NCBI GenBank assembly: GCA_041640595.1
Contig: JBEPZY010000009.1
Span: 32,001-96,000 of the forward strand
Direction: 5' to 3'
Origin: Gemmatales bacterium
GTDB taxonomy: Bacteria > Planctomycetota > Planctomycetia > Gemmatales > HRBIN36
DNA length: 64,000 nucleotides
Shown here: piece after piece, positions 3,798 to 62,050 of the stretch
Layout: each line of letters opens with the position of its first letter
Numbering within the stretch: position 1 is the first letter of the stretch
Notes under the pieces: model-generated
Told to the model about the DNA's origin: nothing
The model's database searches: none
The model's input: only the letters and a program-made list of their open reading frames with translations
Made by a program: the position numbers and the translations under genes

Positions 3798-3888
3798 CGT
3801 CATCAGACGCAAGGCTGGTCGCAGACACCTAGGGCCGGGAATCTCAGCTCAATGCGATCGGTCGTCATCAGACGGAGCGCTGGTTACA
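3798..3888. repeat. Direct repeat pair around a unique insert, period 65
   Basis: CGTCATCAGACGCAAGGCTGGTCGCA (3798) vs CGTCATCAGACGGAGCGCTGGTTACA (3863), 21/26 identical. Confidence 0.7.
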
Positions 3889-3927
3889 AGCGACCTTTGC
3901 GAAAAATTTTTTGCGAACAGAATTCTC

Positions 3928-4230
3928 CTGACTTATCCCCAGTTTTGACGGGAGCTCTGCTGGACGTAAGGCATGGGAATGATAACGGTTACTTCGGGTG
4001 GCTTTTTTCGGGGGCACCTTGAGCATGCAAGACCCGCCTGAGCTCCTTCAGGTTATTGGTAAAGGGCCGCCGACCGCCGAGCACGTGGTTGAAGTCGATC
4101 GCCTTGGCCGAAAGCCGGGATGATGCCGACGGGCGACGCTCGGAGCCGAAAGTGTCCGACCTTTCGTGAACGATTTACTAGCCAGGTGATACGAAAGAGC
4201 CCGCCTAATCAAAAACTGGGGATGAGTCTG
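3928..4230. mobile_element. MITE / non-autonomous IS derivative, copy 1 (IS4 family, IS50-like ends)
   Basis: Terminal inverted repeats CTGACTTATCCCCAGTTTTGA ... TCAAAAACTGGGGATGAGTCTG. Internal sequence homologous to 43052-43423. No transposase ORF and no clear target-site duplication. Confidence 0.8.
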
Positions 4231-4337
4231 TAGGTCCGGGGATTGAACTTAGGGTTGCCAGCACCTTATGAGTGAAGGCTGGGGGATGAGACGACTAAGG
4301 GAGTAGGTCGGGGGATTGAACTTAGGGTTGCGAGCAC
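4230..4337. repeat. CRISPR-like repeat-spacer-repeat (35 nt repeats, 38 nt insert, period 73)
   Basis: GTAGGTCCGGGGATTGAACTTAGGGTTGCCAGCAC (4230-4264) and GTAGGTCGGGGGATTGAACTTAGGGTTGCGAGCAC (4303-4337), 33/35 identical. Confidence 0.8.
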
Positions 4338-4590
4338 TCTCAACAACCAGGAGCCACAATAATTTATCGGTCGGGTACTTGAAGCAAATGTGCGAAGGAT
4401 AAAAGCCTGGCTTGAGCAAGGTGCTACGGGAAAATTAGAACTGATTGAGATATCTCCACAGCCCGTCGGTCTGGTTCTCGAAAGAGGTTGCGATAGACTA
4501 TTAGATGGGCACACGATAAAGGTGATTCTCGTGAAGGATGATAGGTCGGAGCTTGGCTACAAAATACTCACGGCCTTTGTGAATCCCTGA
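4303..4590 (+). pseudogene. C-terminal remnant of an RNase A-like polymorphic (CdiA-CT type) toxin
   Basis: Frame reads ...VASTLNNQEPQ*FIGRVLEANVRRIKAWL...IKVILVKDDRSELGYKILTAFVNP. The ASx / LxxN..I..WL / GY.ILTA[FY] pattern fits bacterial RNase A-like toxins. Internal stop, 5' end lost at the MITE, and directly upstream of a CdiI-like gene. Confidence 0.6.
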
Positions 4591-4627
4591 GCTGAGAGGC
4601 CTTACGGTCAGACCCGGAGGTAATGGC

Positions 4628-5011
4628 ATGAACTTGATTATGTACTGCCATCGCAGATGGCCTAACTTGTGTTCATTGATGACTATCTACTTTGGTCAAG
4701 ATTTTGTTGATTTCTTCGGGTCTCCGGAAGGGGCACTCCGTGCCATTTTCTACGGAACCCCAGATGAGGAATGGGCTCCCCTAAGTAAGGATGAGCTGTC
4801 GGCTGTCCTGCGAGAACTTGAGGAATTCATGGATTTCGCACGGGAGTATCTGCGCAAGCACCCAGAAAAGAAAGAAGATGTTGTGCTTGATATGCTTGGC
4901 TGCGCCTACAACACTTATGCGAGTGGTTTTACCCCCATGCAATGGCTGGAGTATCTTCGTAACCGTATACGGGAGCATCTGGAAAAAATCCAGAAGCAAG
5001 ACGCAAGCTAG
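4628..5011 (+). CDS. CdiI-like immunity protein (CdiI_2-type, partner of RNase A-like toxins)
   Basis: 127 aa with WPNLxxLxxxYFGQD motif and C-terminal GFTPMQWLxxLR. GGAGG RBS. Lower GC than flanks. Confidence 0.75.
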   Translation: MNLIMYCHRRWPNLCSLMTIYFGQDFVDFFGSPEGALRAIFYGTPDEEWAPLSKDELSAVLRELEEFMDFAREYLRKHPEKKEDVVLDMLGCAYNTYASGFTPMQWLEYLRNRIREHLEKIQKQDAS

Positions 5012-5130
5012 ATTAGAATTCGTACGAGCGTTTCCGATATTCCCAGGCTGATTTGTTCCCTCGAGAACAAAAACGCGCCGCGATTCTTCGCCAGCGATTT
5101 AGAGATCAGATCGGCTGGCAGTGGAGTTTA

Positions 5131-10800: not shown

Positions 10801-10898
10801 GACTTTCTGATTCCAGCCGCGAGATTCAAAGCCCGCCAATTTTCCGATCCAGCCATTGGCGCTTCTCCGGTTGCGAGTTTCTGATTCCAGCCGCGAGA
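10801..10898. repeat. Direct repeat pair, period 74
   Basis: GACTTTCTGATTCCAGCCGCGAGA (10801) vs GAGTTTCTGATTCCAGCCGCGAGA (10875), 23/24; weak partial copy at 10841. Confidence 0.75.
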
Positions 10899-18240: not shown

Positions 18241-18336
18241 TGGTAGCCATTCGAGTAGCTGTTAGCTCGACATGGCCTGACTAGCTGGTTACGGCCGCCG
18301 CTAGCTGGCAGCCATTCGAGTAGCTGTAAGCTCTAC
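18241..18336. repeat. Direct repeat pair (31 nt + 34 nt insert), period 65
   Basis: TGGTAGCCATTCGAGTAGCTGTTAGCTCGAC (18241) vs TGGCAGCCATTCGAGTAGCTGTAAGCTCTAC (18306), 28/31. Confidence 0.8.
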
Positions 18337-18342: not shown

Positions 18343-18457
18343 GAGCAACATTCCCGCTCTTCGATCCATCCTCTATGTCAGCTTGGAGCCTCTCCTTTGT
18401 GGAGACGCCCTCCGATCGGGGAGCTATATTCCCGCTTTTCAATCCATCCTATGCCAG
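18343..18457. repeat. Direct repeat pair (~38 nt + 39 nt insert), period 78
   Basis: GAGCAACATTCCCGCTCTTCGATCCATCCTCTATGTCAG (18343) vs GAGCTATATTCCCGCTTTTCAATCCATCCTATGCCAG (18421). Confidence 0.75.
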
Positions 18458-25380: not shown

Positions 25381-25485
25381 GCTTATGGCCCGGAGCAGTA
25401 TCCAGGGCGCGTTTTTGCCATGTCCGTCTCATTGTAAGCACGGTGGCTTATACCACGCGGAGCAGTACCGGAGGCGTGTCTATGG
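25381..25485. repeat. Degenerate direct repeat pair, period ~65-67; second copy overlaps the stop codon of the CxxCH gene
   Basis: GCTTATGGCCCGGAGCAGTATCCAGGGCGCGTTTTTGCC (25381) vs GCTTATACCACGCGGAGCAGTACCGGAGGCGTGTCTATGG (25446). Confidence 0.6.
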
Positions 25486-30878: not shown

Positions 30879-30991
30879 TTCCCGGCAACTGGCCACTGAC
30901 CACTGATCACCGACCACTACTAGGGGCCACTTGTAACTGCCTGCTAATGACTTTTCCGGCAACTGGCCACTGACCACTGATCACTGACCAC
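30879..30991. repeat. Direct repeat pair (39 nt + 35 nt insert), period 74
   Basis: TTCCCGGCAACTGGCCACTGACCACTGATCACCGACCAC (30879) vs TTTCCGGCAACTGGCCACTGACCACTGATCACTGACCAC (30953), 37/39. Confidence 0.8.
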
Positions 30992-31028: not shown

Positions 31029-31146
31029 AAACAGCCTGCAAATGCCCATTGGAAAGAAAGCGCACGAGTGACACCCTGGCGATCGGCGCCAGGTAGCCCC
31101 CAAACAAGCCGAAAATGCCATTGGGGAGAAAGCGTATGAGTGACAC
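31029..31146. repeat. Direct repeat pair, period 72; second copy contains the start codon of the next gene
   Basis: AAATGCCCATTGGAAAGAAAGCGCACGAGTGACAC (ends 31074) vs AAATGCCATTGGGGAGAAAGCGTATGAGTGACAC (ends 31146). Confidence 0.75.
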
Positions 31147-31867
31147 TCCGCCGCCAGCTGCCTGGCTCTTCCAGGACGTCGCGGATTTCGTCGAGCAAAT
31201 CCGCGCCGCACAGGGTCGCGTAGTGCCAGCTTCGGGAGGTTATCGCCCAGCCCAGTTGACGGTATGCATCAGTCGCGAAACCGGCAGTCGCGGTGGAACC
31301 ATTGCCCGCAAGGTGGCGCAGCTATTGCAGTGGGACTACTACGACCAGGAAAAACTCGAATATCTGGCGCAGGAGGCCCATCTCGAACAGGAACTGTGGA
31401 TGGGATTACCCGAGCAGGCTCGCATTTGGGCGGAAGAGCACCTGCGGCAACTACAACACGAAGGCCGGCTCAGTCAGCATACAACCATTCAGCAGCTGGC
31501 GCGAGCTTTGTTAGCACTGGGTTGTCGCGGACACGCCGTCATCCTGGGTCGGGGAGCGGGTTATTTGTTGCCTCCAGCCAGCACGTTACTGGTACGGGTT
31601 ATAGCGGACGTAGCAGACCGTGTTCGTTACATCAGTGAATTCCACCGCCTGCCCGAAGAACAGGCTCGGCAATATGTCCGTCAAACCGACCAGCAAAGAA
31701 TGGAATTTGTACGCACTCATTTTGGCAGGGATCCGACGGAGGTGCATCAATACGACCTGGTAGTGAACTCCAGTTTGCTCAGCGTCGAAGCTGCCGCTCA
31801 GGTCATTGCCCTGGCTGCCCGTTACAAAGAATCGCAGCTGGATGAGACCGGCAACGCGGAATCGTGA
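31136..31867 (+). CDS. Cytidylate kinase-like family protein
   Basis: TVCISRETGSRGGTIA, VILGRGA and YDLVVNS motifs. Confidence 0.85.
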   Translation: MSDTPPPAAWLFQDVADFVEQIRAAQGRVVPASGGYRPAQLTVCISRETGSRGGTIARKVAQLLQWDYYDQEKLEYLAQEAHLEQELWMGLPEQARIWAEEHLRQLQHEGRLSQHTTIQQLARALLALGCRGHAVILGRGAGYLLPPASTLLVRVIADVADRVRYISEFHRLPEEQARQYVRQTDQQRMEFVRTHFGRDPTEVHQYDLVVNSSLLSVEAAAQVIALAARYKESQLDETGNAES

Positions 31868-36646: not shown

Positions 36647-36831
36647 GTAACTGTTGCCGGCGGCCATAGATTGTGCGTTCCAGATGCGCACGGCCGTTGG
36701 TCAGTTACAAACCGAGGAGAGTAACTGTAGCCAGCGGCGATCGATTATGGGTTTCAGAACCTGGCACTGTCTATATATGTTCGGCAATTGCGGGTAACTG
36801 TAGCCAGCGGCGATCGATTATGGGTTCCAGA
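36647..36831. CRISPR. CRISPR-like mini-array: 3 x 38 nt repeats, 36 and 35 nt spacers; last repeat overlaps the 3' end of the M81 gene
   Basis: GTAACTGTAGCCAGCGGCGATCGATTATGGGTT(T/C)CAGA at 36721 and 36794 (37/38) plus a degenerate copy at 36647 (32/38). No cas genes nearby. Confidence 0.6.
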
Positions 36832-42497: not shown

Positions 42498-42754
42498 GCA
42501 ACTAATCCGCCGAACAGCTCCATCGCCGCTACACCTTGCGCTGGGCTGGACTGAGACGCCAAGCCACGGCTGCGATTAGTCTGCCCTACGGCTCCAACGC
42601 CGCTTCATTCTATCGCAGCTAAGCGGCGACGCAGGCGGGACGTCCGCAACTAACCTGCCAAACCCTTTCAACGCCGCGCCGCTCCATCGGAGGTAGCCGG
42701 CGATGCGGAATTGACGCTTGCAACCAACGCGCCAGACGGCTCCAACGCTGCTAC
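42498..42754. CRISPR. Degenerate CRISPR-like array: 4 x ~35 nt repeats with exact 74 nt period, upstream of tRNA-Val
   Basis: GCAACTAATCCGCCGAACAGCTCCATCGCCGCTAC (42498), GCGATTAGTCTGCCCTACGGCTCCAACGCCGCTTC (42572), GCAACTAACCTGCCAAACCCTTTCAACGCCGCGCC (42646), GCAACCAACGCGCCAGACGGCTCCAACGCTGCTAC (42720). Confidence 0.6.
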
Positions 42755-42774
42755 TGGCTGGGATGCACAAACTT

Positions 42775-43051: not shown

Positions 43052-43423
43052 CTGAGTTATGCCCAGTTTTGACGGGAGCTCCGCTGGACGTCAGGCATGG
43101 GGAGGATAACGGTTACGTCGGACGGCCTGTTTTTCCGGGGGCACTTGGAACACGCAAGCCCCGCCTGTGCTTGCTCAGGTTTTAGCAAAGGTTTAGCACG
43201 CTTTCGGCATAATCGTGAATCTGGCGGCTGTTTGTGCTTCCTCAGGTTCTGGCAAAGGGCCGCCGACCGTTAGGCACATAGTTGGCTGCGGTCGGCTCGC
43301 CTGCACGCGGCAATGATGTTAGCACCCGGTGCGCGAGGCCGGAAAAATAAGAATTTTCGTAAGCTCTTGTCCGGGACTGTTTTTCGAAATCACCCGCCGC
43401 TATCAAAACTGGGGATGAGTCAG
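43052..43423. mobile_element. MITE / non-autonomous IS derivative, copy 2
   Basis: TIRs CTGAGTTATGCCCAGTTTTGA ... TCAAAACTGGGGATGAGTCAG; first ~130 nt clearly homologous to 3928-4060. Confidence 0.8.
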
Positions 43424-43705: not shown

Positions 43706-43812
43706 GAAACGGTGAGTGAAGCCGGGACGGTGAACCTGGCCCCGTGCCTGGCTCATCAGCCGGAGGTCGTGCTTTCGAGGGGAACGATGAGTGGGGCCGG
43801 GATGGTGAACCT
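43706..43812. repeat. Direct repeat pair, period 75
   Basis: GAAACGGTGAGTGAAGCCGGGACGGTGAACCT (43706) vs GGAACGATGAGTGGGGCCGGGATGGTGAACCT (43781), 27/32. Confidence 0.75.
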
Positions 43813-47551: not shown

Positions 47552-47570
47552 ACTCGCTGGCTGAAAATGC

Positions 47571-48459: not shown

Positions 48460-48691
48460 CAGCAACGCATTGCCATCGGGCTACTCCGTCCAGTTGCGAC
48501 AAAATGCGGCAGGCGGCATGCGACCCCAATACAGCGACGCCTTGCCTTTGGTGCTACAGGGATAAACCACGTGCTGCTGCACTTGTCGGCAGCAATACAG
48601 CGACGCCCTGGTTTTCGTGCTACCCTAGCTGCGGCGAAATACGGGAGGCGGAACTCGAACGCCCACAGCGACGCCTTGGTTTTACTGCTAC
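48460..48691. CRISPR. Degenerate CRISPR-like array: 4 repeats ending GCTAC, periods 73/66/68
   Basis: CAATACAGCGACGCCTTGCCTTTGGTGCTAC (ends 48557), CAATACAGCGACGCCCTGGTTTTCGTGCTAC (48623), CCACAGCGACGCCTTGGTTTTACTGCTAC (48691), degenerate CAGCAACGCATTGCCATCGGGCTAC (48484). Confidence 0.6.
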
Positions 48692-50418: not shown

Positions 50419-50500
50419 GCCCTGCCACAACTGCTTCCACCCGTTTGTGCCCTCCAGGCACTGTTGCCGGAAAAAACAAGTTTCTGCCTTTACCTGTCGC

Positions 50501-50555: not shown

Positions 50556-50642
50556 AGTTTGTTTGCCCCGACCGAAATGGTAACCTGGTGTGTGACGGGG
50601 ACACGCTGGACCAGGGTTTTCCTTATTGCGGGAGGCTTAGCC

Positions 50643-51569: not shown

Positions 51570-51640
51570 CCCGTCCACGCGAACCAGGCCAGGCTAACGC
51601 GGTGAAGGAATTTTGCCGCTCTGGGGCAGGGGAAAAAGCT

Positions 51641-52054
51641 ATGCTGCGAACCGGCTGCTTGCTGCTATTGGGCGGTTTGCTGGGTTGCCTGGGATGTCAG
51701 CGAGTGGTGGTGTATATACCGCAGACGCAGGAGGTTCGTGGCGTGGTCTCGTATAAAGATGGCCGGCCGCTCACCGGGGGCGTGGTGGAGTTTCGTTACC
51801 TTCGCGACCCCTCTATTCGCGCTGTGGGCAAGATTGAGCCGGACGGAAGTTTTACTTTGGAAACGCTAGCCGGCGATCAGCGGGTTTCCGGGATACCTCC
51901 GGGACGGTACCATGTATCTATCGCCCCGCCGCCGGAAATGGGTCAAACACACTCCCCTTACGTGTTTCCCAGCGTGGAAATCGCTCCCAATCAGAAGGAA
52001 ATCCGTCTGGAATTCGAGGGGTTTCCCGTCAACAGCGACGAAGCACCAAAATAA
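51641..52054 (+). CDS. DUF1559-associated lipoprotein (carboxypeptidase-regulatory-like)
   Basis: Lipobox LLGCLGC; VRGVVSYKDGRPL...GKIEPDGSFTL...GIPPGRYHVSI. Confidence 0.85.
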   Translation: MLRTGCLLLLGGLLGCLGCQRVVVYIPQTQEVRGVVSYKDGRPLTGGVVEFRYLRDPSIRAVGKIEPDGSFTLETLAGDQRVSGIPPGRYHVSIAPPPEMGQTHSPYVFPSVEIAPNQKEIRLEFEGFPVNSDEAPK

Positions 52055-52055
52055 A

Positions 52056-52080
52056 CCAGGCCGCGTGATGGTTGGCCTGG
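52056..52080. terminator. Possible hairpin between convergent genes
   Basis: CCAGGCC...GGCCTGG stem right after the stop codon; weak U-tract. Confidence 0.3.
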
Positions 52081-52190
52081 CTCGCTTCTACCGTGCGATA
52101 CCGGTAACGTAAGCCAGCTGAAGAGTCCCGGAGAACCGGAGTCGAGAAACCTGGTCGCTGGCAAGAACCGTTCGGCAAGATGGTGCCGTT

Positions 52191-53516: not shown

Positions 53517-54667
53517 GCTGCCTCCTCACGCCAGACGGAGAGCAATTGCTCGGCCTGGTGGAGCTTCCGCAACTCCAGCACGCCGACTTCCGGCAGATAC
53601 CAGCGAAAGACCATGAACTCTCTGGGATGACGTTCACCAGCAGGGCGATGTCGGGTCGCAGTGCCGGCAGCAGGCGAAGCATCCTCGGCAGGCGGAGCGG
53701 TCATGCTGACCGACGCGATCGGGGTGTGCAGGGCGCGCAACAGTGTTTCCATTTGCAGCGGTGTGCGCGGCGATTCGGATTCGTCCAGGATTCGCGGCCA
53801 GGTTTGCCATCGTAAAACGGCTCGGGGCGACAAACGGGCCGACGGGCAACGTTCGGAACACCTGAATTCTCTGGCACGATGCGGCGAATCCGTGCCGGGA
53901 CTTTGCTCTTCCCCGTTCGCCAGTTGCTGCTCGCCAGAACCTGGACATAACGAACCCGCTTCAGTGCTTCGTAGCTGGCTGGTAGATGCTTGTGGCTCTT
54001 CAGAGCTCATGCGGCAAACGGCCAGGGCCATCGCCAGGCAAACGGGAGCAGTAGCATTACTCAGGCCCAGTTCCCCTGGCAACGTTCGCCAGCCCGTGGC
54101 GACCAGCCAGAAGCCAGGAACCGGCTGCTGCACTGTTTCGAGCATACCGGCCAAAAGCAAGTCCACCAGTTGTCCCGGTCCGCCACCGACACCGTAATTC
54201 GGCCCGTGAAGACCGAGCAGCACGCTGAGCGACCCGGACAGAGAATGCAGGCAATGGTTGGGGATGAGATGCGGGGAAATGGCTCCGGGACCATCGAGGC
54301 TATAACGTTGCAAAGCGGCCAGTGTCGCTTCCTTGCCGAAATACTCAGGTGCTGCCAGCACACCCCAGCGCTCCGGTTGCGGCAACGGTGGCAGCTGTTC
54401 ACGAAGTTGCAGCGCCACTGCCAGAGCCGCCAGAGTTTGCTCGTCAGCATGACGCACAAAGGCATGGGGCAGCGGTTGACCGTCGGGTAATCGCAACTCT
54501 GTTCGCAGCTGTTGCAATTGCTCCAGCCCAAACGCATAGCTGCTCCAGCCGAGGATTCCCACCTGGATGGCCGAGTGGGGCAAGCGAATTGGAGAAGCTC
54601 GGCGGCGCACACCTTTCTCCTCGATTGACCCCATGTGCGGGGGATTTTGTCGGCAATTGCGGGCCAT
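53513..54667 (-). CDS. Ketosynthase chain-length-factor-like protein (truncated KS N-domain)
   Basis: ISPHLIPNHCLHSLSGSLSVLLGLHGPNYGVGGG; lacks the catalytic Cys; translationally coupled to ACP and KS. Confidence 0.7.
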   Translation of the reverse strand: MARNCRQNPPHMGSIEEKGVRRRASPIRLPHSAIQVGILGWSSYAFGLEQLQQLRTELRLPDGQPLPHAFVRHADEQTLAALAVALQLREQLPPLPQPERWGVLAAPEYFGKEATLAALQRYSLDGPGAISPHLIPNHCLHSLSGSLSVLLGLHGPNYGVGGGPGQLVDLLLAGMLETVQQPVPGFWLVATGWRTLPGELGLSNATAPVCLAMALAVCRMSSEEPQASTSQLRSTEAGSLCPGSGEQQLANGEEQSPGTDSPHRAREFRCSERCPSARLSPRAVLRWQTWPRILDESESPRTPLQMETLLRALHTPIASVSMTAPPAEDASPAAGTATRHRPAGERHPREFMVFRWYLPEVGVLELRKLHQAEQLLSVWREEAA

Positions 54668-54933
54668 CAGGCCGCCTGGGCTGCGGAAGCCTGTTGCAGT
54701 TTGCTTTGCAGCAGATCGAGCAAATCGCCCACTTTTTCCAAACGCTGCAACTCCTGGCTATCCAGGCGAATGTGGAATCGGTTTTCGATCTGCATGACCA
54801 GACTCACCAGGTCCACCGAGTCCAGCCCCAAACCTTCTTTCAACGTGACGCTGTCGTCCAGGCGATCGTAGCGTTGTCCTGTGTCCTGATAGAGCAACTC
54901 CAGCAATTCCTGGCGCAGTTGTGCACGATCCAT
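54667..54933 (-). CDS. Acyl carrier protein
   Basis: LKEGLGLDSVDLV (phosphopantetheine Ser); GGAGG RBS before MDRAQ. Confidence 0.9.
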   Translation of the reverse strand: MDRAQLRQELLELLYQDTGQRYDRLDDSVTLKEGLGLDSVDLVSLVMQIENRFHIRLDSQELQRLEKVGDLLDLLQSKLQQASAAQAA

Positions 54934-55140
54934 ACTCACACCTCCACACGGGGAGCGGGTTTGCCCAATCGGGTTGGGGTACATCCGAGGCGGGATAAGA
55001 ACGATTTTCCCGCAATCTGACAAGCCCAGTTGTGCGGACTGCTTCCCGAACAGCCAGAGTCATTGTCCCGCATGGCTCCATCTTCGGGTCACGATGGCCG
55101 ATGCTGTTGCAGGCCGGCTACGGTGATGCCCGCACGCTGG

Positions 55141-55236
55141 GTGTGTCCCTTTCCATCGCCGGGTTGCAAGCTTGGTAGAGCTCAGAGCAGCCATCACCAT
55201 CGAGCGTGTGTCCCTTTCCGTAGTCGGGTTGCAAGC
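55141..55236. repeat. Direct repeat pair (31 nt + 34 nt insert), period 65
   Basis: GTGTGTCCCTTTCCATCGCCGGGTTGCAAGC (55141) vs GTGTGTCCCTTTCCGTAGTCGGGTTGCAAGC (55206), 28/31. Confidence 0.8.
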
Positions 55237-55284
55237 GCGGACACTTGTTGCAGATATGCCTTTGCGATTCGCCAGGACGCTTCG

Positions 55285-56140
55285 TTGGCACGGCGGGCTG
55301 ACGTCCGCCGCTCCTGGTCGTGTGTGGGACTCCGCATTGCGAATCACGCATTTCGCGACGAACGAACGTCGTGCAACCAGGAGCGGCTGGCGTAAGCCAG
55401 CCGTGGTACGCGAACGTAGCCCGTCGGCGAAAGACGGTTGCATGTGCAGGTGCGTTACTTAACCACGGCGGGCTAACACCCGCCGCTCTTGGTTGTCGCT
55501 CCGGTCGTCGTCCAACATAGCGCGGTTGCAACCGCACAGCGCCCGGTTCAGCGAACCACGGCGGGCTGACGCCCGCCGCTCTTGGTCGTGTGTGGGACTC
55601 CGCATTGCGAATCACGCATTTCGCAGCAAACCAACGTCGTGCAACCAGGAGCGGCTGGCGTAAGCCAGCCGTGGTACGCGAACGTACCCCGTCGGCGAAA
55701 GACGGTTGCATGTGCAGGTGGGTTACTTAACCACGGCGGGCTGACACCCGCCGCTCCTGTTCGAATGTGCGTTTGTGCATCGCAAAAATCGTTGTTTCGC
55801 CGGCGGACGTCCGCACACCAATACAAGAGCGGGGGGCGTAAGCCCCCCGTGGCGCCAATGGACACGATTGTAATCCGGAGCCGTATGAGCCATAAACGAT
55901 TCTGGCGCTACGTTAGCCCCGTGGCGCTTATAAACGCGAATGCAACGGCAATCCGCACACACCATCGGCGGTCTGCTGACGAATGGCGCCGGTCTCTGCG
56001 GATGCGGGTTTGTCCACCCACGGCGGGCTAACACCCGCCGCTCTTGGTTGTCGCTCCGGTCGTCGCCGAACAGAACACGACTTCGACCGCACAGCGCCCG
56101 GTTCACCGAATCACGGCAGGCTAACGCCCGCCGCTCTTGG
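55285..56140. repeat. Second cluster of REP-like palindromes with an internal duplication offset by 268 nt
   Basis: About 9 units near 55288, 55381, 55463, 55556, 55649, 55731, 55827, 56018 and 56112; 55288-55490 nearly identical to 55556-55758. Confidence 0.88.
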
Positions 56141-56221
56141 TGGTGATGATCGCCGCTCATGGCGAAATCGTTTCCCGTTGCCAGCGCGGTACTCGCGCTT
56201 GCCTGGGAATATTGGCATCGT

Positions 56222-56312
56222 GACCGCTTTAGAGAATGAAGAGGACATTGATGATGCAGAGCAGCATGCGGGCCAGATGCAAGTCTCGACCGCTCTGGAG
56301 AGTGAAGAGGAC
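56222..56312. repeat. Direct repeat pair, period 66
   Basis: GACCGCTTTAGAGAATGAAGAGGAC (56222) vs GACCGCTCTGGAGAGTGAAGAGGAC (56288), 22/25. Confidence 0.75.
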
Positions 56313-56433
56313 CGCCCCGGTTGAAGTACGTGTTGGTTCTGAAACATTGGCCCAGCGTCTTGACGGGGCTGTGGGAGTCTGGTAGCATTACACAAACGGA
56401 AACGGGAAATCGAATCGGAGGGGAGCGGATAAG

Positions 56434-56484
56434 ATGGTGTGGCTGGCGCTGAGCCTGGGGCTATGCCTTAGCCTGCGGTCCTGA
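56434..56484 (+). CDS. Leu-rich leader peptide of a leuA attenuator (MVWLALSLGLCLSLRS)
   Basis: 16 aa with 6 Leu codons including rare CTA; GGAG RBS upstream; precedes a terminator and leuA. Confidence 0.75.
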   Translation: MVWLALSLGLCLSLRS

Positions 56485-56530
56485 CCGCAGGTCTCAGGCT
56501 CGGTTGCCATCGTGATGCTTGTGGAAATCG

Positions 56531-56564
56531 AAGCCCTGGGACCTGACGGGTTCCAGGGCTTTTT
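56531..56564 (+). terminator. Rho-independent attenuator terminator
   Basis: AAGCCCTGGGACC-TGACG-GGTTCCAGGGCTT followed by a T-run, between the leader peptide and leuA. Confidence 0.8.
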
Positions 56565-56708
56565 GATTTCTGGCTGGGGCAATGCGAGCGGTGGCGGTCG
56601 CTCCTGGCGAGAACACGATCGCTGTTTGCTGCCGGGACACCTGAACGCGGATTGGCTAATCTCCATTGCTCCGCGTGTATTTGCTGCCGCGAGGCAAAGG
56701 AGTCCGTC

Positions 56709-58283
56709 ATGGCTGAGAGCAATCGTGTGATTATCTTCGATACGACGTTGCGGGATGGGGAACAATCGCCGGGCGCCAGCATGAATCTGGAAGAGAAGCT
56801 GGAAGTAGCACGTGCCCTGCGTGATTTGCGAGTGGATGTCATCGAGGCAGGGTTTCCCATCGCGTCGCCTGGGGATTTTGAAGCGGTACGCGCCATCGCC
56901 GAACAGATCGAAGGGCCGATCATTTGTGCTCTGGCTCGCTGCCGAGCCGAAGATATTGACCGTGCTGCGGAGGCTTTGCGACCAGCAGCCCGCAAACGCA
57001 TCCACGTTTTCCTGGCCACCAGTGCCATTCATCGCGAGTTCAAGTTGCGGATGACCAAAGAAGAGATCGTCCGCTGGGCGGTAGAGGGGGTCAAACGGGC
57101 CAAAGAATACTGCGAGGATGTCGAGTTTTCTCCGGAAGATGCCGCTCGCACGGAGCTGGATTTTCTGTGTGAGGTTGTCGAAAAGGCGATCGAAGCCGGG
57201 GCCACGACCATCAACATTCCTGATACGGTTGGTTACGCCATGCCGCAACAGTACGGCCAGATTTTCCGCCACTTGCGGCAACACGTGCGGGGCATCGAAA
57301 AAGTGATCTTGAGCGCCCACTGTCACGACGATCTCGGCTTAGCGGTGGCCAACAGCCTGGCCGCTCTGCATGAGGGTGCCCGTCAGGTTGAGTGCACTAT
57401 CAACGGTATCGGGGAGCGAGCCGGAAACTGTGCTCTGGAAGAAGTGGTGATGGCCCTGAAAGTGCGGCAGGATTTCTTCGGTCTGACAACGCAGATTGAT
57501 ACGAAACGGCTGTATCCGACCAGCCGGCTGGTGTCCACGATTACAGGTTTGCAGGTGCAACGCAACAAAGCCATCGTCGGCCAAAACGCCTTCGCTCACG
57601 AAGCGGGCATCCATCAGCACGGCATTCTGGCACACCAGGCCACTTACGAGATCATGCGCCCGGAGGATGTCGGTCGCAGTTCCAGCGATCTGGTGCTGGG
57701 CAAGCATTCCGGTCGCCATGCCCTGCGAGCCCATGCCGAAAATCTCGGTTACCATCTCAGTGAGGAGCAACTCGACCGTGTTTTTGAGTCGTTCAAACGC
57801 CTGGCCGACAAGAAGAAAACCATTTACGACGCGGATTTGCAGGCGCTCATTGAGGGTATTTTGCACGATGGCCGACCGGAAATGTGGAAATTAGTTTCGT
57901 TCCACACCAGTGCCGGTTCGGGCGTGATTCCGACGGCAGCGGTCTGCGTACAGCGAGCGGATGGCCAGCAATTCCGGGATGCCGCTTGCGGTGACGGTCC
58001 CATTGACGCCGTCTTTCGCACGCTCATGCGGATCACCGGTTTGGAAGTGCAGTTACGGGATTTTCAGGTGCGTTCGGTGTCGCAGGGAGAAGATGCCCAG
58101 GGCGAGGCCCTTGTCGAAGTCGAACATCAGGGGCGATTGTATCGAGGACGGGCTACCAGCACCGACATTATCGAAGCCGGGGCTCTGGCTTTCCTGAGCG
58201 TGCTCAATCAAATTGCCTGGCGAACACAACCGGATAGCGGCGTGAATAAGAGCGAACGGCTTACCTCGATTCCCAGTCCGTGA
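56709..58283 (+). CDS. leuA: 2-isopropylmalate synthase
   Basis: IFDTTLRDGEQSPG, HCHDDLG, INGIGERAGN, AFAHEAGIHQHG and regulatory domain GDGPIDA. Confidence 0.97.
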   Translation: MAESNRVIIFDTTLRDGEQSPGASMNLEEKLEVARALRDLRVDVIEAGFPIASPGDFEAVRAIAEQIEGPIICALARCRAEDIDRAAEALRPAARKRIHVFLATSAIHREFKLRMTKEEIVRWAVEGVKRAKEYCEDVEFSPEDAARTELDFLCEVVEKAIEAGATTINIPDTVGYAMPQQYGQIFRHLRQHVRGIEKVILSAHCHDDLGLAVANSLAALHEGARQVECTINGIGERAGNCALEEVVMALKVRQDFFGLTTQIDTKRLYPTSRLVSTITGLQVQRNKAIVGQNAFAHEAGIHQHGILAHQATYEIMRPEDVGRSSSDLVLGKHSGRHALRAHAENLGYHLSEEQLDRVFESFKRLADKKKTIYDADLQALIEGILHDGRPEMWKLVSFHTSAGSGVIPTAAVCVQRADGQQFRDAACGDGPIDAVFRTLMRITGLEVQLRDFQVRSVSQGEDAQGEALVEVEHQGRLYRGRATSTDIIEAGALAFLSVLNQIAWRTQPDSGVNKSERLTSIPSP

Positions 58284-58397
58284 TCCATCGGTTCTTCCGA
58301 ATACGCGGCGGACATTGTCCGATACTGGTGGCCATCTACAATAGCGCGGGTGCCTGGCCGAATTTCTCCGGCAATACTTTGGCCATTCCAGGAGCAG

Positions 58398-59141
58398 ATG
58401 GCTGTGGAGAGTCGGGATAAATCGCCTTGCGAGAGTAATGTAGCTGAAACGGCCCGGCTCAAGGCCAGTGCTGACGCTGAGCTTACCGGAGCCGACTCCG
58501 AAGCCAGTGTTGGTGTGAACTCGACAAGCGAATCAGGCTCACCATTGGCTACTCGTGCTCAGGTGTTGCCGGGTGGCAAGGTGGACCTGGAGCGTATCGC
58601 CCGGGCGGTGCGCGAAATCTTGCTGGCGGTAGGCGAGAATCCCGATCGCGATGGACTGCGCGATACCCCGATGCGGGTTGCCCGTATGTATGCCGAGTTG
58701 TTCGGGGGTCTATACCAGGACCCGCGTTGCCATCTCGATAAGTACTTCGTGGAAAAATACGACGAGATCGTCCTGGTCAAAGGGATCAGTTTTGAAAGCA
58801 TGTGCGAACATCACCTGCTTCCGTTTCACGGCCAGGCTCACGTGGCGTATATTCCGAACGGCAAGATCGTGGGTTTGAGCAAGCTGGCCCGGGTGCTGGA
58901 ACTTTTGGCCCATCGGCCACAGGTGCAGGAACGGCTCACCGAACAACTCGCCGATCTGCTTATGCAGGAGCTTGAACCCAAAGGTGTGGCGGTGATTATG
59001 GAAGCTACTCACACCTGCATGACCATTCGCGGTATCCGCAAGCCGACCAGTGTTTGCACCACCAGCGCTATGCGGGGAGTGTTCAAGTCGAATCTCTCCA
59101 CCCGCACCGAACTGATGTCGCTGATTTATGGGTCGAAATAG
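58398..59141 (+). CDS. folE: GTP cyclohydrolase I
   Basis: GLRDTPMRVARMY, CEHHLLPF, GLSKLAR, QVQERLT and HTCMTIRG. Confidence 0.95.
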   Translation: MAVESRDKSPCESNVAETARLKASADAELTGADSEASVGVNSTSESGSPLATRAQVLPGGKVDLERIARAVREILLAVGENPDRDGLRDTPMRVARMYAELFGGLYQDPRCHLDKYFVEKYDEIVLVKGISFESMCEHHLLPFHGQAHVAYIPNGKIVGLSKLARVLELLAHRPQVQERLTEQLADLLMQELEPKGVAVIMEATHTCMTIRGIRKPTSVCTTSAMRGVFKSNLSTRTELMSLIYGSK

Positions 59142-59261
59142 GGCTGTTGCCTGGTGGTGCCGAACTGTCTCGGGTAGGCTAACGCTCGCCGACCTTGCGA
59201 AAAGACCGTGCCACAACAGGCCCGCACCGACCGCTTCCGGTTTCCTGGTAAGCCTGGCTCC

Positions 59262-60008
59262 ATGCTAGAGATCTTCGCTTTGCGATTGGCCGTGGGAATG
59301 CTGGTGGCGCTGCTGTTGCTGCCCGTACCGGAGGTACCCTCGCGTTTTTACCGTTTGCATTTGCTGATCGCCCTGGGATTGGTGACCCTGGCGGGGGTAT
59401 CGGCGGGCCAGAATGATAGTGCTGTGTACTGGTTCGGGCTGGGACTGGCCGGTGCGGGTTGCTTTGTGGGTACCTGGTTCTGGCTGGGGGAAGCGAATCG
59501 CCTGGGGTTGCTGCCCATTGTCCTGGCGGCCGGTGCAGGTATGCTGGCCCTTATGTCCGAAGCGATCGGCGAAGCAAGCCAGGTTTCGTCGCTCCTGGCG
59601 ATAAGTTTCGAGCATGCCAGCTCGGCCTTGCAGCTTGGTCTGGTGCTCACCGCTATGCTGCTGGGCCATTACTATCTGATTGCCCCGAGTATGACCACGC
59701 GGCCCCTGGTTCGGCTGACCGTGTTGTTGCTGGGAGCGATCCTGGCACGGGCGGTGATTGTCGCCAGCAGCGAGGTAGCATGGTTGTATAGCACAGCCGG
59801 CTCTGCTCGCGCTCCGGAACAATGGCTGTGGCTGGTCTTGCGCTGGCTGGGCGGAATTGTGGCGGCGGCAATGTTCAGCTTCCTGGCCTGGCGATGCGCT
59901 CGCCTGCGGGCCACGCAGTCAGCCACAGGAATCCTGTACGCGGCCGTCATTTGCACTTTCCTGGGTGAACTGGCCCACTTGCTGGTACATACGCGAACCG
60001 CTCCTTAG
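59262..60008 (+). CDS. Integral membrane protein (planctomycete family)
   Basis: About 8 TM helices; AMLLGHYYL and TQSATGILY motifs. Confidence 0.75.
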   Translation: MLEIFALRLAVGMLVALLLLPVPEVPSRFYRLHLLIALGLVTLAGVSAGQNDSAVYWFGLGLAGAGCFVGTWFWLGEANRLGLLPIVLAAGAGMLALMSEAIGEASQVSSLLAISFEHASSALQLGLVLTAMLLGHYYLIAPSMTTRPLVRLTVLLLGAILARAVIVASSEVAWLYSTAGSARAPEQWLWLVLRWLGGIVAAAMFSFLAWRCARLRATQSATGILYAAVICTFLGELAHLLVHTRTAP

Positions 60009-60057
60009 ACCGTACTCGCAAGCATGGGCTTCCTGCATACCGGCAGTGTCCCCGTAG

Positions 60058-60531
60058 GTGCGCCCTATGCGGATGGCGATTCCCTGCTCCCATTGCGGTG
60101 AAGTCTTCAGCACCACTGACGTAGATGCCCAGCGCTGGCGGTGTCCGAATTGCCAGCAGGAGATCCTTGCCCAAGCGGCGGGAGGCGGGGAAGTTTTGTC
60201 GCGCTGTCGGGTGTGCGGCAATGAACAGATTTACGTGCAGAAGGATTTTCCCCACAGCGTTGGCCTGACCATCGTGGCGGTCGCCATTGCTCTTTCCTGC
60301 GTGTTCTATTACTGGCACTGGCTGGTCTGGACGTGGGCGGTGCTGATCGGTTCGGTGCTGGTGGATGCGCTTGTGTACTGGTGGGTGGGGACAGTTAGAG
60401 TGTGCTATCGCTGCCAGGCCAGGTACTGGGGTTTTGCTCCCAATCCCCAGCACCATCCTTTTGAGCTGGAAATTGCGGAAAAATATCGCCAGGAACGGCT
60501 TCGCCGCCAATCTCTGTCCCGCTCAGGCTGA
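60058..60531 (+). CDS. Zinc-ribbon membrane protein
   Basis: CSHC, CPNC, CRVC...YVQKDFP, two TM helices, CYRC. Confidence 0.75.
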   Translation: MRPMRMAIPCSHCGEVFSTTDVDAQRWRCPNCQQEILAQAAGGGEVLSRCRVCGNEQIYVQKDFPHSVGLTIVAVAIALSCVFYYWHWLVWTWAVLIGSVLVDALVYWWVGTVRVCYRCQARYWGFAPNPQHHPFELEIAEKYRQERLRRQSLSRSG

Positions 60532-60769
60532 GCGAAAGTGCTGGCGACTCCCCCAGCCCCTGAACTTGAGTGTCCGCTGCGCCTGGACCGTTTTGCCAAG
60601 CAAACCGCCTTGCCAAGCACTGGCGTATCTGTTAGCAAAATCCCAACCGAGATCGGGAGTGCCAGCGATCCCGACAGGCTGACCCATGGCGGTCTCAATC
60701 ACTACTTACGCTACGGTAAGCGGCGAGCTGACGCTCACCGCTCTTGACGACCGAGACGAGGATGAATTC

Positions 60770-61651
60770 ATGGTACCCATAGACCTCAGCGGCAAAATCG
60801 CCCTGGTAACCGGCGTGGGGGATAACGAAGGTTTCGCCTGGTACATTGCCAAGGCATTGCAGGCGGCGGGATGCCGACTCATCTTCGCCTGTCACCCGCG
60901 AGTCTTTACCATCGTCGAGAGCATCCTCACCCGCGAGCAGGATGCTGAGTCGCGCATTCTCCCTTACGGTGCCGGGACGTTGCAGGTGGAGAAACTTCTG
61001 CCCTGTGACGTTCGTTTCGACACCATGCAGGATGTGGATGAAGCCACGCGGAACGATCGCCGTTACCAGCGTTTTGCCGACTATTCCATTCAGGGCGTCA
61101 TGGACGTGATCAGCCGCGATTATGGTGGCCTCGACATCCTCATTCATTCGGTGGCATTCAGTCCGGAGATCAAGAACATTCAACTGGAAACGAGTCGGCA
61201 GGCGTATTTGACGGCGTTGTCGGTGAGTGCTTATTCACTAACGGGATTATTGCGGCGAGCCTGGCCGCTCATGAAAGACCGACCGGGCGGGGCTTCGGCA
61301 GTGGCGTTGACTTATCTGGGTGGCGAACGGGTTGTGCCGCATTACGGGGGTGGCATGTCCGCTGCCAAAGCGGCTCTGCAAATTGACGCCCGACAGCTGG
61401 CGCACAACCTCGGCAAATACAATATCCGCGTCAATCTCATCTCGGCCGGGCCTTATGCCTCTCGTGCCGCTCGCGCCATCGGCGACATTCAGCAGATGAT
61501 CCAGTACGCTGCCCAGCGCAGTCCGTTACCGCGTCCCATTCAGCCAGAGGAAGTTGCCAATGCCGTTTTGTTCCTGTGCAGTCCGCTCGCCTCTGCTGTT
61601 ACCGGACAGATTTTGTACGTGGATTGCGGCTACCACATCATGGGCGTGTAA
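60770..61651 (+). CDS. fabI: Enoyl-ACP reductase (FabI, chlamydial/plant-like subtype)
   Basis: IDLSGKIALVTGVG, DILIHSVA, YGGGMSAAK (Y...K), ISAGP and TGQILYVDCG. Confidence 0.88.
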   Translation: MVPIDLSGKIALVTGVGDNEGFAWYIAKALQAAGCRLIFACHPRVFTIVESILTREQDAESRILPYGAGTLQVEKLLPCDVRFDTMQDVDEATRNDRRYQRFADYSIQGVMDVISRDYGGLDILIHSVAFSPEIKNIQLETSRQAYLTALSVSAYSLTGLLRRAWPLMKDRPGGASAVALTYLGGERVVPHYGGGMSAAKAALQIDARQLAHNLGKYNIRVNLISAGPYASRAARAIGDIQQMIQYAAQRSPLPRPIQPEEVANAVLFLCSPLASAVTGQILYVDCGYHIMGV

Positions 61652-61664
61652 AACGCTCGCCCGC

Positions 61665-61827
61665 CAATGCCCTTACCAGCACCGCACCAGATCAGTCCGT
61701 CTTCGTGCATGTGCATAGGGTGTGGAATGCCTGGTCGGCAATGTCCCTTACCAGCACTCCGCGGATTTTTGCCGGCAAACCAGCTCTGGGTGTCCACCAC
61801 CCGGCAACGGCTCTTATCCTCCGCGAA
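61665..61827. repeat. Degenerate 3-copy direct repeat, periods 74 then 66
   Basis: CAATGCCCTTACCAGCAC (61665), CGGCAATGTCCCTTACCAGCACTCCGCG (61736), CGGCAACGGCTCTTATCCTCCGCG (61802). Confidence 0.6.
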
Positions 61828-61940
61828 TAAACCGGCTGACTCGCACTCTCCGCACGCGGAACCGGGCCGCCCTCACTATGCGCGAGAAAGACCGCCCATA
61901 GCTTTCCAAACCGTGGCGGTGACGGCGAACCGCGCGGCTG

Positions 61941-62050
61941 GCGTTGCAGCAACAATCGGGCCGAGCGGTGCGGCCATATGACTAGGCGACGTGGAAAATC
62001 TCCCAGCGATTGCCTTGCAGCGACAATCAGCCCGAACGATGCAGCCAGAT
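61941..62050. repeat. Direct repeat pair (39 nt), period 71
   Basis: GCGTTGCAGCAACAATCGGGCCGAGCGGTGCGGCCATAT vs GCCTTGCAGCGACAATCAGCCCGAACGATGCAGCCAGAT, 31/39, mostly transitions. Confidence 0.7.

What the first reader, a model, noticed from the sequence alone, without database searches (positions are those of the whole stretch)
3798..62050. Window-wide repeat-insert-repeat scars with two fixed periods: candidate natural neo-CRISPR loci from off-target spacer integration
SEEN: about 18 separate intergenic loci where a 25-45 nt local sequence recurs after a unique insert. Periods cluster at 65-68 (3798, 18241, 25381, 55141, 56222, 61736, 48557-48691) and 71-75 (4230, 10801, 30879, 31029, 36647 x3, 42498 x4, 43706, 47586, 48484, 61665, 61941), with one at 78. 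Repeats from different loci are unrelated. Several are demonstrably local chromosomal sequence: they include the M81 stop codon, the CxxCH gene stop, the cytidylate-kinase-like start codon, part of a toxin frame and heptamer-array units. Most have GT at one terminus (GTAGG, GTAAC, GTAGC, GTGTG, GTGGT, GTGTC, GTCCT, GTGCT). Copies show graded decay. KNOWN: Cas1-Cas2 duplicates a repeat-length target while inserting a fixed-length spacer, most CRISPR repeats start GT, and off-target integration creating new mini-arrays has been shown in E. coli overexpressing Cas1-Cas2. INFERENCE: two promiscuous adaptation modules (about 30+35 and about 37+37) have seeded the chromosome over long timescales, with insertions surviving mainly between genes. 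I am not aware of natural ectopic integration being described at this density.
Basis: partly seen in the sequence, partly recalled or inferred. Interest (0 to 1): 0.92.

Follow-up and report, generated by a model that had tools for sequence, protein, structure and literature searches.

The report
Hundreds of misplaced CRISPR spacer insertions
The scattered repeat-insert-repeat units are real and are best explained as scars left when the cell's two CRISPR spacer-inserting enzymes pasted spacers into ordinary DNA, an error known from laboratory work but fixed here hundreds of times in a wild genome.

Summary
The window carries 16 strong two- or three-copy direct repeats at spacings of 65-68, 71-75 and 78 nt, plus some weaker ones. 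Random windows give 0.1 hits. Genome-wide, 330 locally unique pairs fall at 65-68 (140) or 72-76 nt (190), against about 2.6 per other offset.

The genome holds exactly two Cas1-Cas2 modules. A type I-B set sits beside an array of 30-nt repeats with a modal 36-nt spacer. An RT-linked set sits beside an array of 37-nt repeats with a modal 37-nt spacer. In the orphan loci, identity at the repeat offset forms a box about 30 or 37 nt wide, and the inserts are at random identity. They are therefore neither decayed tandem duplications nor a dispersed repeat family.

Four further lines support spacer integration:
- One orphan insert is homologous to a real array spacer.
- Three orphan inserts copy the cell's own genes, each with the array's CCN PAM beside the source.
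- A congener with only the RT-linked Cas1 has only the 72-76 class.
- Other wild strains carry extra units.

The mechanism is already known (neo-CRISPR, Nivala et al. 2018). The natural density, and two integrases acting in parallel, are the unusual part. This scan had already reached the same reading on other pieces of this genome.

The parts
3798..3884 (.). Orphan repeat-insert-repeat, period 65 (30-nt-repeat class), 19/22 identical; intergenic, next to palindromic elements
4230..4337 (.). Orphan unit, period 73 (37-nt-repeat class), 35-nt duplication 33/35, about 38-nt insert; the repeat contains a 10-nt stretch like the 3' part of the canonical 37-nt repeat
10801..10898. Orphan unit, period 74, core 23/24 (49 nt at 73%)
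18241..18336 (.). Orphan unit, period 65, 31-nt duplication 28/31
18343..18450 (.). Orphan unit with outlier period 78, 30-nt duplication 26/30; class uncertain
25391..25484 (.). Decayed orphan unit, period 67, 20/27; the second copy covers the stop codon of the 1313-aa CxxCH-containing gene on the minus strand
30879..30991 (.). Orphan unit, period 74, 39-nt duplication 37/39 containing heptamer units, 35-nt insert; one wild strain (run X7) carries one more unit here (75 nt extra)
31046..31153 (.). Orphan unit, period 72, 29/36; the second copy carries the ribosome-binding site and likely start codon of the cytidylate-kinase-like gene
36647..36831 (.). Three-copy orphan array, periods 74 and 73, 38-nt repeat (82% and 97%), two unrelated 35-36-nt inserts; copy 3 holds the last four codons and the stop of the M81 peptidase gene
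42498..42757 (.). Four-copy, strongly decayed array of period about 74 just upstream of a tRNA gene; partly whole-unit similarity; one strain (X4) has 150 nt more here
43166..43258 (.).
43708..43812 (.). Orphan unit, period 75, 26/30, inside the 5' end of the 1316-aa open frame (in frame)
48527..48691 (.). Three-copy orphan array, periods 66 and 68, about 30-nt repeat (27/31, 26/29)
55141..55236 (.). Orphan unit, period 65, 31-nt duplication 28/31
55845..55945 (.).
56222..56312 (.). Orphan unit, period 66, 22/25
61941..62050 (.). Decayed orphan unit, period 71, 31/39

Best explanation
The units are scars of off-target (non-canonical) spacer integration by the cell's own two Cas1-Cas2 integrases.

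Each integrase normally attacks the two ends of the leader-proximal CRISPR repeat, on opposite strands, and joins a prespacer there. Gap repair then duplicates the repeat. When the complex lands on ordinary DNA, the same chemistry duplicates whatever lies between the two attack points. That stretch is about 30 bp for the type I-B module and about 37 bp for the RT-linked module. The duplicated copies flank a spacer of about 36 or 37 nt, giving units of 65-68 and 72-76 nt.

The scars survive mainly in non-coding DNA and then decay by point mutation. Some sites are hit again, giving 3-4 copies. Some units are amplified by recombination.

Shown here: the dimensions, the cognate modules, the unique inserts, homology to a real spacer, the PAM beside self-derived sources, the match between scar class and Cas1 repertoire, and the strain polymorphism.

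Inferred: the chemistry itself, that most inserts are foreign, and that the scars are non-functional because their repeats do not resemble the canonical repeats.
For: (1) Two sharp peaks. 423 of the 750 pairs outside the canonical arrays have no far copy of their repeat. Of these, 140 lie at 65-68 nt and 190 at 72-76 nt. The other 93 spread over 36 other offsets, about 2.6 each. A Markov-1 genome gives 0 hits and a 40-nt block shuffle gives 3-21 per offset.

(2) Cognate machinery. There are two Cas1 and two Cas2. One set is Cas2-Cas1b-Cas4-Cas3-Cas5-Cas7 plus Cmr genes, beside 317+27 repeats of 30 nt with spacers of 35-38 nt (335 of 341; mode 36). The other is Cas2, RT and Cas1 beside 247 repeats of 37 nt with spacers of 35-39 nt (241 of 246; mode 37).

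(3) Ruler. Mean identity at the repeat offset is about 0.9 inside a box of about 30 nt (65-68 class) or about 37-38 nt (72-76 class). It is 0.17-0.38 elsewhere, in the insert and the flanks (on the 126 of 140 and 143 of 190 pairs with a match of 45 nt or less). The most common length among the high-identity non-canonical pairs is 30 and 37 nt.

(4) The period distributions of orphans and arrays are alike.

(5) The insert at C2:174386 matches array spacer 184 at 31 of 36 positions, E = 2e-11.

(6) Array-A protospacers on contig C15 have a 5'-CCN PAM in 27 of 36 cases. Three 65-68-class inserts copy the cell's own DNA: 33/33 in an ORF, 33/34 in the 23S rRNA gene, 34/36 in an ORF. All three sources have NGG, which is CCN on the other strand, at the flank.

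(7) A congener, G002, has only the RT-linked-type Cas1. It shows 9 orphans at 72-76 nt and none at 65-68 nt in 1.006 Mb. G003, with both Cas1 types, shows 3 and 6 in 0.597 Mb.

(8) Run X7 has one further 75-nt unit at 30952-30993. Run X4 has 150 nt more in the 42498 array.

(9) The first base of the repeat is G in 52% and 45% of strand ends, against 29% in the genome. Ends begin with GT in 24/122 and 19/102 cases, against 5.4% expected. This mirrors the 5'-GT ends of the canonical repeats.

(10) 153 of 269 pairs lie fully outside a crude ORF map, against 12.5% of random segments.
Against: - No empty site (a joint skipping one unit) was seen for any window locus among the joints shown for four runs. 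Seventeen joints were not shown.
- Intergenic DNA of the congeners is too diverged (68-75% in the genes) for a true orthologous empty-site alignment.
- Similarity of the target sites to the canonical repeats is weak: 6 loci share an 8-mer, against 2.5 +/- 1.6 at random, in each class.
- About 260 of the 269 inserts have no identifiable source, and window bases 1-50000 have no match in the phage collection.
- 14 of 140 and 47 of 190 pairs have matches longer than 45 nt. These are whole-unit tandem repeats or amplified units, not simple integrations.
- One strain polymorphism, at 41943-41963, is 21 nt duplicated plus 36 nt new, 57 nt in all. It fits neither ruler.
- G002 is only 93% complete, so its missing type I-B Cas1 could be an assembly gap.
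- The genome is a 42-contig assembly from a metagenome, and my gene map is crude.
Confidence: 0.9

Rival explanations
1. The units are ordinary tandem duplications of 65-76-nt segments, made by slippage or unequal recombination, in which part of each unit has decayed so that only a 25-45-nt core still matches.
For: A minority of pairs do show whole-unit similarity: 9 of 140 and 33 of 190 have matches at least as long as the period. Examples are the tandem arrays at C5:155300-156330 and C8:39320-39900. In the 42498 array one match runs over 67 nt at 67%.
Against: For the other 126 and 143 pairs, identity at the repeat offset falls from about 0.9 to random level (0.17-0.38) at sharp edges. The box width is 30 or 37 nt, and the insert is as dissimilar as the outer flanks. 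Thirty-two pairs have perfectly identical copies around an unrelated insert. Slippage does not explain two fixed periods that equal the two CRISPR units, nor an insert that matches an array spacer.
Confidence: 0.02
2. The units belong to a dispersed repeat family (a MITE- or REP-like element) that carries an internal direct repeat.
For: The genome does have such a family. Palindromic elements with internal spacings of 87-93 nt account for 201 of the 242 pairs whose repeat recurs at three or more other places. They lie beside some orphan loci in the window.
Against: The 330 pairs counted in the two classes have no other copy of their repeat anywhere in the genome. Their inserts do not match each other, except within a few locally amplified arrays. 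Several repeats are pieces of local genes.
Confidence: 0.02
3. They are remnants of, or functional, mini CRISPR arrays acquired horizontally from many different CRISPR systems, or regulatory crRNA-like mini-arrays, rather than integration errors.
For: Isolated and mini arrays are common in genomes, and some encode regulatory crRNA-like RNAs (listings and abstracts). A few orphan repeats resemble a canonical repeat end, for example C7:236291.
Against: This would need some 250 unrelated repeat types that all share just the two unit lengths of the resident systems. The repeats include resident gene ends and starts. They lack similarity to the canonical repeats that a resident Cas6 or effector would need. 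237 of 252 loci have only two copies.
Confidence: 0.03
4. Another, unknown insertion process not based on Cas1-Cas2 inserts about 36-nt pieces with 30- or 37-bp target duplications.
For: No biochemical test of the Cas1-Cas2 pairs was possible. One polymorphic insertion has odd dimensions, 21+36 nt.
Against: The dimensions coincide with two resident arrays in both repeat and spacer length. One insert is homologous to an array spacer. The array's PAM stands beside the self-derived sources. A congener with one Cas1 type has one scar class. No third peak exists.
Confidence: 0.03

Closest known systems
Neo-CRISPR loci from non-canonical spacer integration by type I-E Cas1-Cas2 in E. coli (Nivala, Shipman and Church 2018, Nat Microbiol). 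The paper was not held. It is known to me by recall and through passages in bioRxiv 10.1101/148544, PMC9456107 and PMC6698737.
   Same: A repeat-length stretch of ordinary chromosome is duplicated around a spacer-length insert. The sites are unrelated to each other. New mini-arrays can grow from them.
   Different: There, the integrase was over-expressed in the laboratory, and natural evidence was called circumstantial for two other species. Here, about 250-330 fixed scars lie in one wild genome. They come from two different modules, type I-B and RT-linked. They have a decay series and vary between wild strains.
[quoted passage not shown] 2020, CRISPR J). Not held. Cited in PMC13142298 for off-target spacer acquisition as one of three origins.
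   Same: Arrays distant from cas genes that may arise by off-target acquisition.
   Different: From recall, those arrays were found with CRISPR detectors and mostly have recognisable CRISPR-type repeats. The loci here mostly have two copies of arbitrary local sequence and would escape such detectors.
In vitro off-target integration by Pyrococcus furiosus Cas1-Cas2 (PMC6698737, passages)
   Same: Full-site integration into non-CRISPR DNA, with spacing set by the integrase. A 30-nt repeat system related to type I-B/III-B.
   Different: There, the off-target sites shared sequence features with the repeats. Here, similarity to the canonical repeat body is weak, and only a terminal G/GT preference is clear.
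Ectopic spacer acquisition in Streptococcus thermophilus and S. mutans type II-A arrays (PMC7999890, PMC5338259, PMC8265633; listing and abstracts only)
   Same: Spacer insertion away from the leader-proximal repeat.
   Different: Those events are inside a genuine array, at genuine repeats. These are outside any array.
RT-associated CRISPR adaptation modules (recalled: Silas et al. 2016; structural preprint 10.1101/2020.10.18.344481 seen as a listing)
   Same: Cas2, a group-II-intron-like RT and Cas1 beside a 37-nt-repeat array. One 72-76-class insert resembles 23S rRNA (25/27), as would be expected for uptake from abundant RNA.
   Different: Off-target scars of such a module have not been described in any paper my four searches found. 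Here the RT is a separate gene.

Membership tests
Off-target Cas1-Cas2 integration scars (neo-CRISPR) | The duplicated target has the length of the cognate CRISPR repeat | tested here: met
   The identity box is about 30 nt for periods 65-68 and about 37-38 nt for periods 72-76. The canonical repeats are 30 and 37 nt.
Off-target Cas1-Cas2 integration scars (neo-CRISPR) | The insert has the length distribution of cognate spacers and is unique | tested here: met
   Orphan periods 65/66/67/68 = 24/60/38/18, against array spacers 35/36/37/38 = 36/165/108/26. Orphan periods 72-76 = 22/50/54/50/14, against array spacers 35-39 = 12/81/99/38/11. The inserts are unrelated except in amplified arrays.
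Off-target Cas1-Cas2 integration scars (neo-CRISPR) | Cognate cas1 and cas2 are present in the genome | tested here: met
   Two Cas1 and two Cas2, each pair beside one giant array.
Off-target Cas1-Cas2 integration scars (neo-CRISPR) | The inserts come from the same pool and selection rules as real spacers (shared protospacers, PAM) | tested here: met
   One insert is homologous to array spacer 184 (31/36). All three self-derived inserts of the 65-68 class have the CCN PAM beside their source. The numbers are small, and most inserts have no known source.
Off-target Cas1-Cas2 integration scars (neo-CRISPR) | An empty site (one copy, no insert) exists in relatives or other strains | tested here: inconclusive
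   In congener G002 the M81 gene end is single, with no 72-76 repeat beside it, but the intergenic DNA cannot be aligned. In four wild-strain assemblies the window loci are present, and no empty-site joint was among those shown. Extra units in other strains were seen instead.
Off-target Cas1-Cas2 integration scars (neo-CRISPR) | The scar class follows the presence of the matching integrase across genomes | tested here: met
   G002 (only the RT-linked-type Cas1 found): 0 and 9 orphans in the two classes in 1.006 Mb. G003 (both types): 3 and 6 in 0.597 Mb. G000: 140 and 190. The samples are small and the assemblies incomplete.
Off-target Cas1-Cas2 integration scars (neo-CRISPR) | Direct demonstration that these integrases make such products | not testable with these tools
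   This needs in vitro or in vivo integration assays.
Canonical CRISPR array | Units share a conserved repeat that the resident Cas6 and effector recognise | tested here: not met
   The orphan repeats are unique local sequences. They resemble the canonical repeats barely more than random DNA does.
Canonical CRISPR array | Transcribed and processed into crRNAs | not testable with these tools
   None of the 20 runs that hold the stretch is on record as RNA.

The most novel reading that the evidence does not exclude
In this planctomycete lineage, two integrases with relaxed target fidelity act as a standing mutagen of non-coding DNA; the counted scars alone would amount to roughly 0.5% of the genome (my arithmetic). 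On this reading the scars are an uncensored fossil record of what the integrases capture. That record includes self-derived spacers, from the 23S rRNA gene and from ordinary genes, which would be lethal in a functional array. Some scars are still acquiring units in wild strains, so the birth of new CRISPR arrays can be watched in nature.
Probability: 0.4. Interest if true: 0.88.

Novelty: new member of a known kind. Interest (0 to 1): 0.76.

Why it matters
Off-target spacer integration has been shown in vitro and in E. coli over-expressing Cas1-Cas2. Whether it matters in nature is an open question (passage in 10.1101/148544).

This genome offers a natural data set of some 250-330 events from two different integrases. 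Such a set can address several questions:
- the in vivo ruler lengths (30 and 37 bp) and the terminal G/GT preference;
- what a type I-B module and an RT-linked module capture when selection against self-targeting is absent;
- how new arrays may start;
- how much CRISPR adaptation costs the host genome.

It also warns that CRISPR detectors and repeat annotators will miss or misread such loci.

Tried and rejected
- Megablast of window 1-25000 and 25001-50000 against the phage collection found no match. Bases 50001-64000 were not searched. Single spacers need a 28-nt exact word, so this search is weak.
- Of the 269 orphan inserts searched against the whole genome, only about nine had convincing matches. 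On inspection of eight of them, two were copies of the whole locus or paralogous repeats, not protospacers (C2:223826, C4:333879).
- k-mer sharing between orphan repeats and canonical repeats is only weakly enriched.
- I looked for a third scar class near 57 nt, after the 21+36-nt strain polymorphism at 41943. None was found.
- Laying four runs on window 30001-50000 showed no joint that skips exactly one unit at a window locus among the joints listed. Seventeen joints were not shown, and contigs drop rare variants.
- An orthologous intergenic comparison in the congeners was not possible. The genes are only 68-75% identical and synteny is broken.
- The papers of Nivala et al. 2018 and Shmakov et al. 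2020 are not held. What I say of them rests on recall and on passages in papers that cite them.
No clear toxin ORF overlaps 4230-4337. Only a CdiI-type immunity gene lies at 4628-5011.
- The orientation of orphan loci could not be set in general, so no leader-like motif was sought.

Full report
**The observation**

The repeat finder lists about 18 two- or three-copy direct repeats in the window, with start-to-start spacings of 65-68 or 71-78 nt. I ran my own scan of all offsets from 40 to 120 (ungapped local score >=14), leaving out the heptamer array at 30303-30848. It finds 16 pairs: seven at 65-68 nt, eight at 71-75 nt and one at 78 nt. The only other hits are three pairs at 90/93 nt, which belong to a dispersed palindromic element. 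Twenty Markov-1 random windows gave 0.1 hits on average.

Four are too weak to call: 47586, 48484, 61665 and 61736.

Independent assemblies of other samples carry the same structures. X2 record 3 spans 30704-36750 with one differing letter. X4 record 12 spans 34534-41963. The loci are therefore not assembly artefacts.

The repeats are pieces of local sequence:
- The third copy of the 36647 array holds the last four codons and the stop of the M81 peptidase gene.
- The second copy at 25458 covers the stop of a 1313-aa gene with a CxxCH motif.
- The second copy at 31118 covers the likely start of a cytidylate-kinase-like gene.

**The whole genome**

The window is G000:C9:32001-96000, in a 4.45-Mb, 42-contig assembly. 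I counted gapped direct repeats (at least 21 of 24 matches) at every offset from 10 to 400. The histogram has sharp peaks at 65-68 (64, 247, 159, 52) and 72-76 (66, 142, 172, 100, 32), with their multiples.

Much of this signal comes from two real, very large CRISPR arrays:
- C8:1-21084, continuing at the end of C10, has 317+27 repeats of 30 nt. Its spacers are 35-38 nt in 335 of 341 cases, with a mode of 36.
- C1:359745-377939 has 247 repeats of 37 nt. Its spacers are 35-39 nt in 241 of 246 cases, with a mode of 37.

A small third array with a variant 30-nt repeat lies on C20 beside Csm genes.

After removing these arrays, 750 pairs remain in the offset range 55-99. I searched each repeat against the genome to split them. 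423 have no other copy anywhere, 85 have one or two, and 242 have three or more.

The 87-93 peak comes almost wholly from repeats with copies elsewhere: 187 pairs in the three-or-more group and 22 in the one-or-two group, against 17 with no other copy. This is a REP/MITE-like palindromic element.

The unique group holds 140 pairs at 65-68 nt and 190 at 72-76 nt. The remaining 93 pairs spread over 36 other offsets.

A Markov-1 random genome gives no hits at all. Shuffling 40-nt blocks within 2 kb flattens the profile to 3-21 per offset.

**Anatomy**

I took the pairs whose match is at most 45 nt long: 126 of 140 and 143 of 190. The mean identity at the repeat offset is about 0.9 inside a box and falls to 0.17-0.38 outside it. 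The box is about 30 nt wide in the 65-68 class and about 37-38 nt wide in the 72-76 class. The insert between the copies is as dissimilar as the outer flanks. This excludes decayed whole-unit tandem duplication for these pairs.

Among the high-identity non-canonical pairs, the most common duplication length is 30 nt in one class and 37 nt in the other.

The orphan periods follow the spacer-length distributions of the arrays:
- 65/66/67/68 = 24/60/38/18, against spacers 35/36/37/38 = 36/165/108/26.
- 72-76 = 22/50/54/50/14, against spacers 35-39 = 12/81/99/38/11.

The 269 pairs chain into 252 loci: 237 with two copies, 13 with three and 2 with four. Thirty-two pairs have identical copies. The others decay down to the detection limit.

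Three loci combine one unit of each class on the same local repeat.

The pairs with longer matches are mostly whole-unit tandem arrays. One example is a repeat-spacer1-repeat-spacer2 block amplified about four times at C8:39320-39900.

**The machinery**

The genome has exactly two Cas1 and two Cas2 genes.

Beside the 30-nt array lie Cas2, a type I-B Cas1 (TIGR03641, 425 bits against a cut-off of 304), Cas4, Cas3, Cas5 and Cas7, followed by a Cmr (III-B) operon.

Beside the 37-nt array lie Cas2, a separate group-II-intron-like reverse transcriptase and Cas1, with no effector genes.

Both canonical repeats end in the same 11 bases, which include the common 8-nt tag ATTGAAAC (the tag's role is recalled, not tested). 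One Cas6 and the Cmr complex could therefore serve both arrays. This is inference.

**Links between orphan inserts and real adaptation**

- The insert of the period-68 locus at C2:174386 is homologous to spacer 184 of the 30-nt array. It matches at 31 of 36 positions in nearly the same register, E = 2e-11.
- Thirty-six protospacers of that array lie on the 9.6-kb contig C15. There is a strand bias of 31:5, and a 5'-CCN PAM in 27 of 36 cases.
- Three inserts of the 65-68 class copy the cell's own DNA. One matches 33/33 inside a 406-aa ORF on C1. One matches 33/34 inside the 23S rRNA gene. One matches 34/36 inside a long ORF on C3. In all three the source is followed by NGG, which is CCN on the other strand.
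- In the first case, counting four ambiguous bases as spacer gives exactly 30+37 nt, and the PAM then directly abuts the source.
- One 72-76-class insert resembles 23S rRNA (25/27). That would fit uptake from abundant RNA by the RT-linked module, but it is a single weak case.
- Apart from one 20-nt partial hit, no spacer of the 30-nt array matches the chromosome outside C15 and that orphan locus. Self-derived spacers therefore seem to survive only where they are harmless. The numbers are small.

**Site preference**

I pooled the 5' ends of both strands. The first base of the duplicated segment is G in 52% (122 ends) and 45% (102 ends), against 29% in the genome. Ends begin with GT in 24/122 and 19/102 cases, against 5.4% expected. 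Loci with GT at one or both ends number 24 of 61 and 18 of 51.

The canonical 30-nt repeat starts with GT on both strands, and the 37-nt repeat on one strand. Otherwise the sites barely resemble the canonical repeats.

The scars lie mainly in non-coding DNA. 153 of 269 pairs are fully outside a crude ORF map, against 12.5% of random segments. 70 are inside, against 77%. They also cluster: 47 neighbouring loci lie less than 500 nt apart, against 21 +/- 4 for random placement in non-ORF DNA.

**Relatives and strains**

Among three congeners, G002 (93% complete) has only a Cas1 of the RT-linked type. G003 (78% complete) has both types.

In 1,005,972 nt of G002, the only repeat pairs between offsets 49 and 82 lie at 72-76 nt. 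Nine are orphans and two belong to its own 37-nt-type array. None lies at 65-68 nt. Given G000's class ratio, nine of nine in one class has a probability of about 0.007.

In 596,775 nt of G003, three pairs lie at 66-67 nt and six at 72-74 nt.

In G002 the M81 gene end is present once, with no such repeat downstream.

Twenty runs from 15 studies of hot-spring and mat metagenomes hold window bases 30001-40000. In contigs of four of them the window loci are present. In addition, X7 has one more 75-nt unit at the 30879 locus, and X4 has 150 nt more in the 42498 array. Units are therefore still being added in the wild. No empty site was seen among the joints shown.

**Conclusion**

The chemistry, with staggered attacks one repeat-length apart followed by gap repair, is inferred from what is known of Cas1-Cas2.

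The kind of event is known from E. coli over-expressing Cas1-Cas2. A citing preprint calls the natural evidence circumstantial for two other species. Off-target acquisition is also listed as one origin of isolated arrays.

Four full-text searches found no report of a natural genome with such a density, or of off-target scars from an RT-linked module. The two key papers themselves could not be read.

Earlier notes of this scan on other pieces of the same genome reached the same reading. I had formed mine before seeing them, and I tested the shared claims myself.

Noticed in passing
window 30303-30848: A long tandem array built of 7-nt units in a 35-nt super-period (11.3 copies at 88%). It lies directly upstream of the 30879 orphan locus, whose repeat contains the same heptamers. 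Other strains show rearranged joints here.
   Followed up: no
window 2995-3792 and 55461-56144: Palindromic REP/MITE-like elements occur in pairs 90 or 93 nt apart. The family accounts for 187 of the 242 pairs whose repeat recurs at three or more other places. They often lie beside orphan spacer scars.
   Followed up: partly
window 41943-41963: Three wild strains (X4, X7, X8) carry 36 extra letters flanked by a 21-nt duplication, 57 nt in all. This fits neither ruler, and no genome-wide class near 57 nt exists.
   Followed up: partly
G000 contig C15 (9585 nt; L114): A small co-assembled contig is hit by 36 protospacers of the 30-nt array, mostly its cas-proximal spacers. There is a 31:5 strand bias and a CCN PAM, which looks like primed adaptation against a plasmid or virus.
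   Followed up: partly
G000:C5:166219-170885 (L111 4220-8886): The 23S rRNA gene spans 4667 nt against a 2925-position model, so it probably carries an insertion of about 1.7 kb.
   Followed up: no
G000:C8:39320-39900: A repeat-spacer1-repeat-spacer2 block of 148 nt is tandemly amplified about four times. This looks like an orphan two-spacer array copied by recombination.
   Followed up: no
G000:C8:21408-21507: A perfect 34-nt duplication with period 66 lies about 320 nt beyond the end of the 30-nt array, between the array and the cas genes. It is an integration into the presumed leader region.
   Followed up: no
window 4628-5011: A CdiI-type immunity gene (PF18593, E = 3.5e-12) has no recognisable toxin gene upstream. 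It sits in an intergenic stretch full of repeats.
   Followed up: no
window 42776-42849: A tRNA-like gene (read by eye, not run through ARAGORN) lies just after the four-copy decayed array. Depth is very high here in all runs.
   Followed up: no
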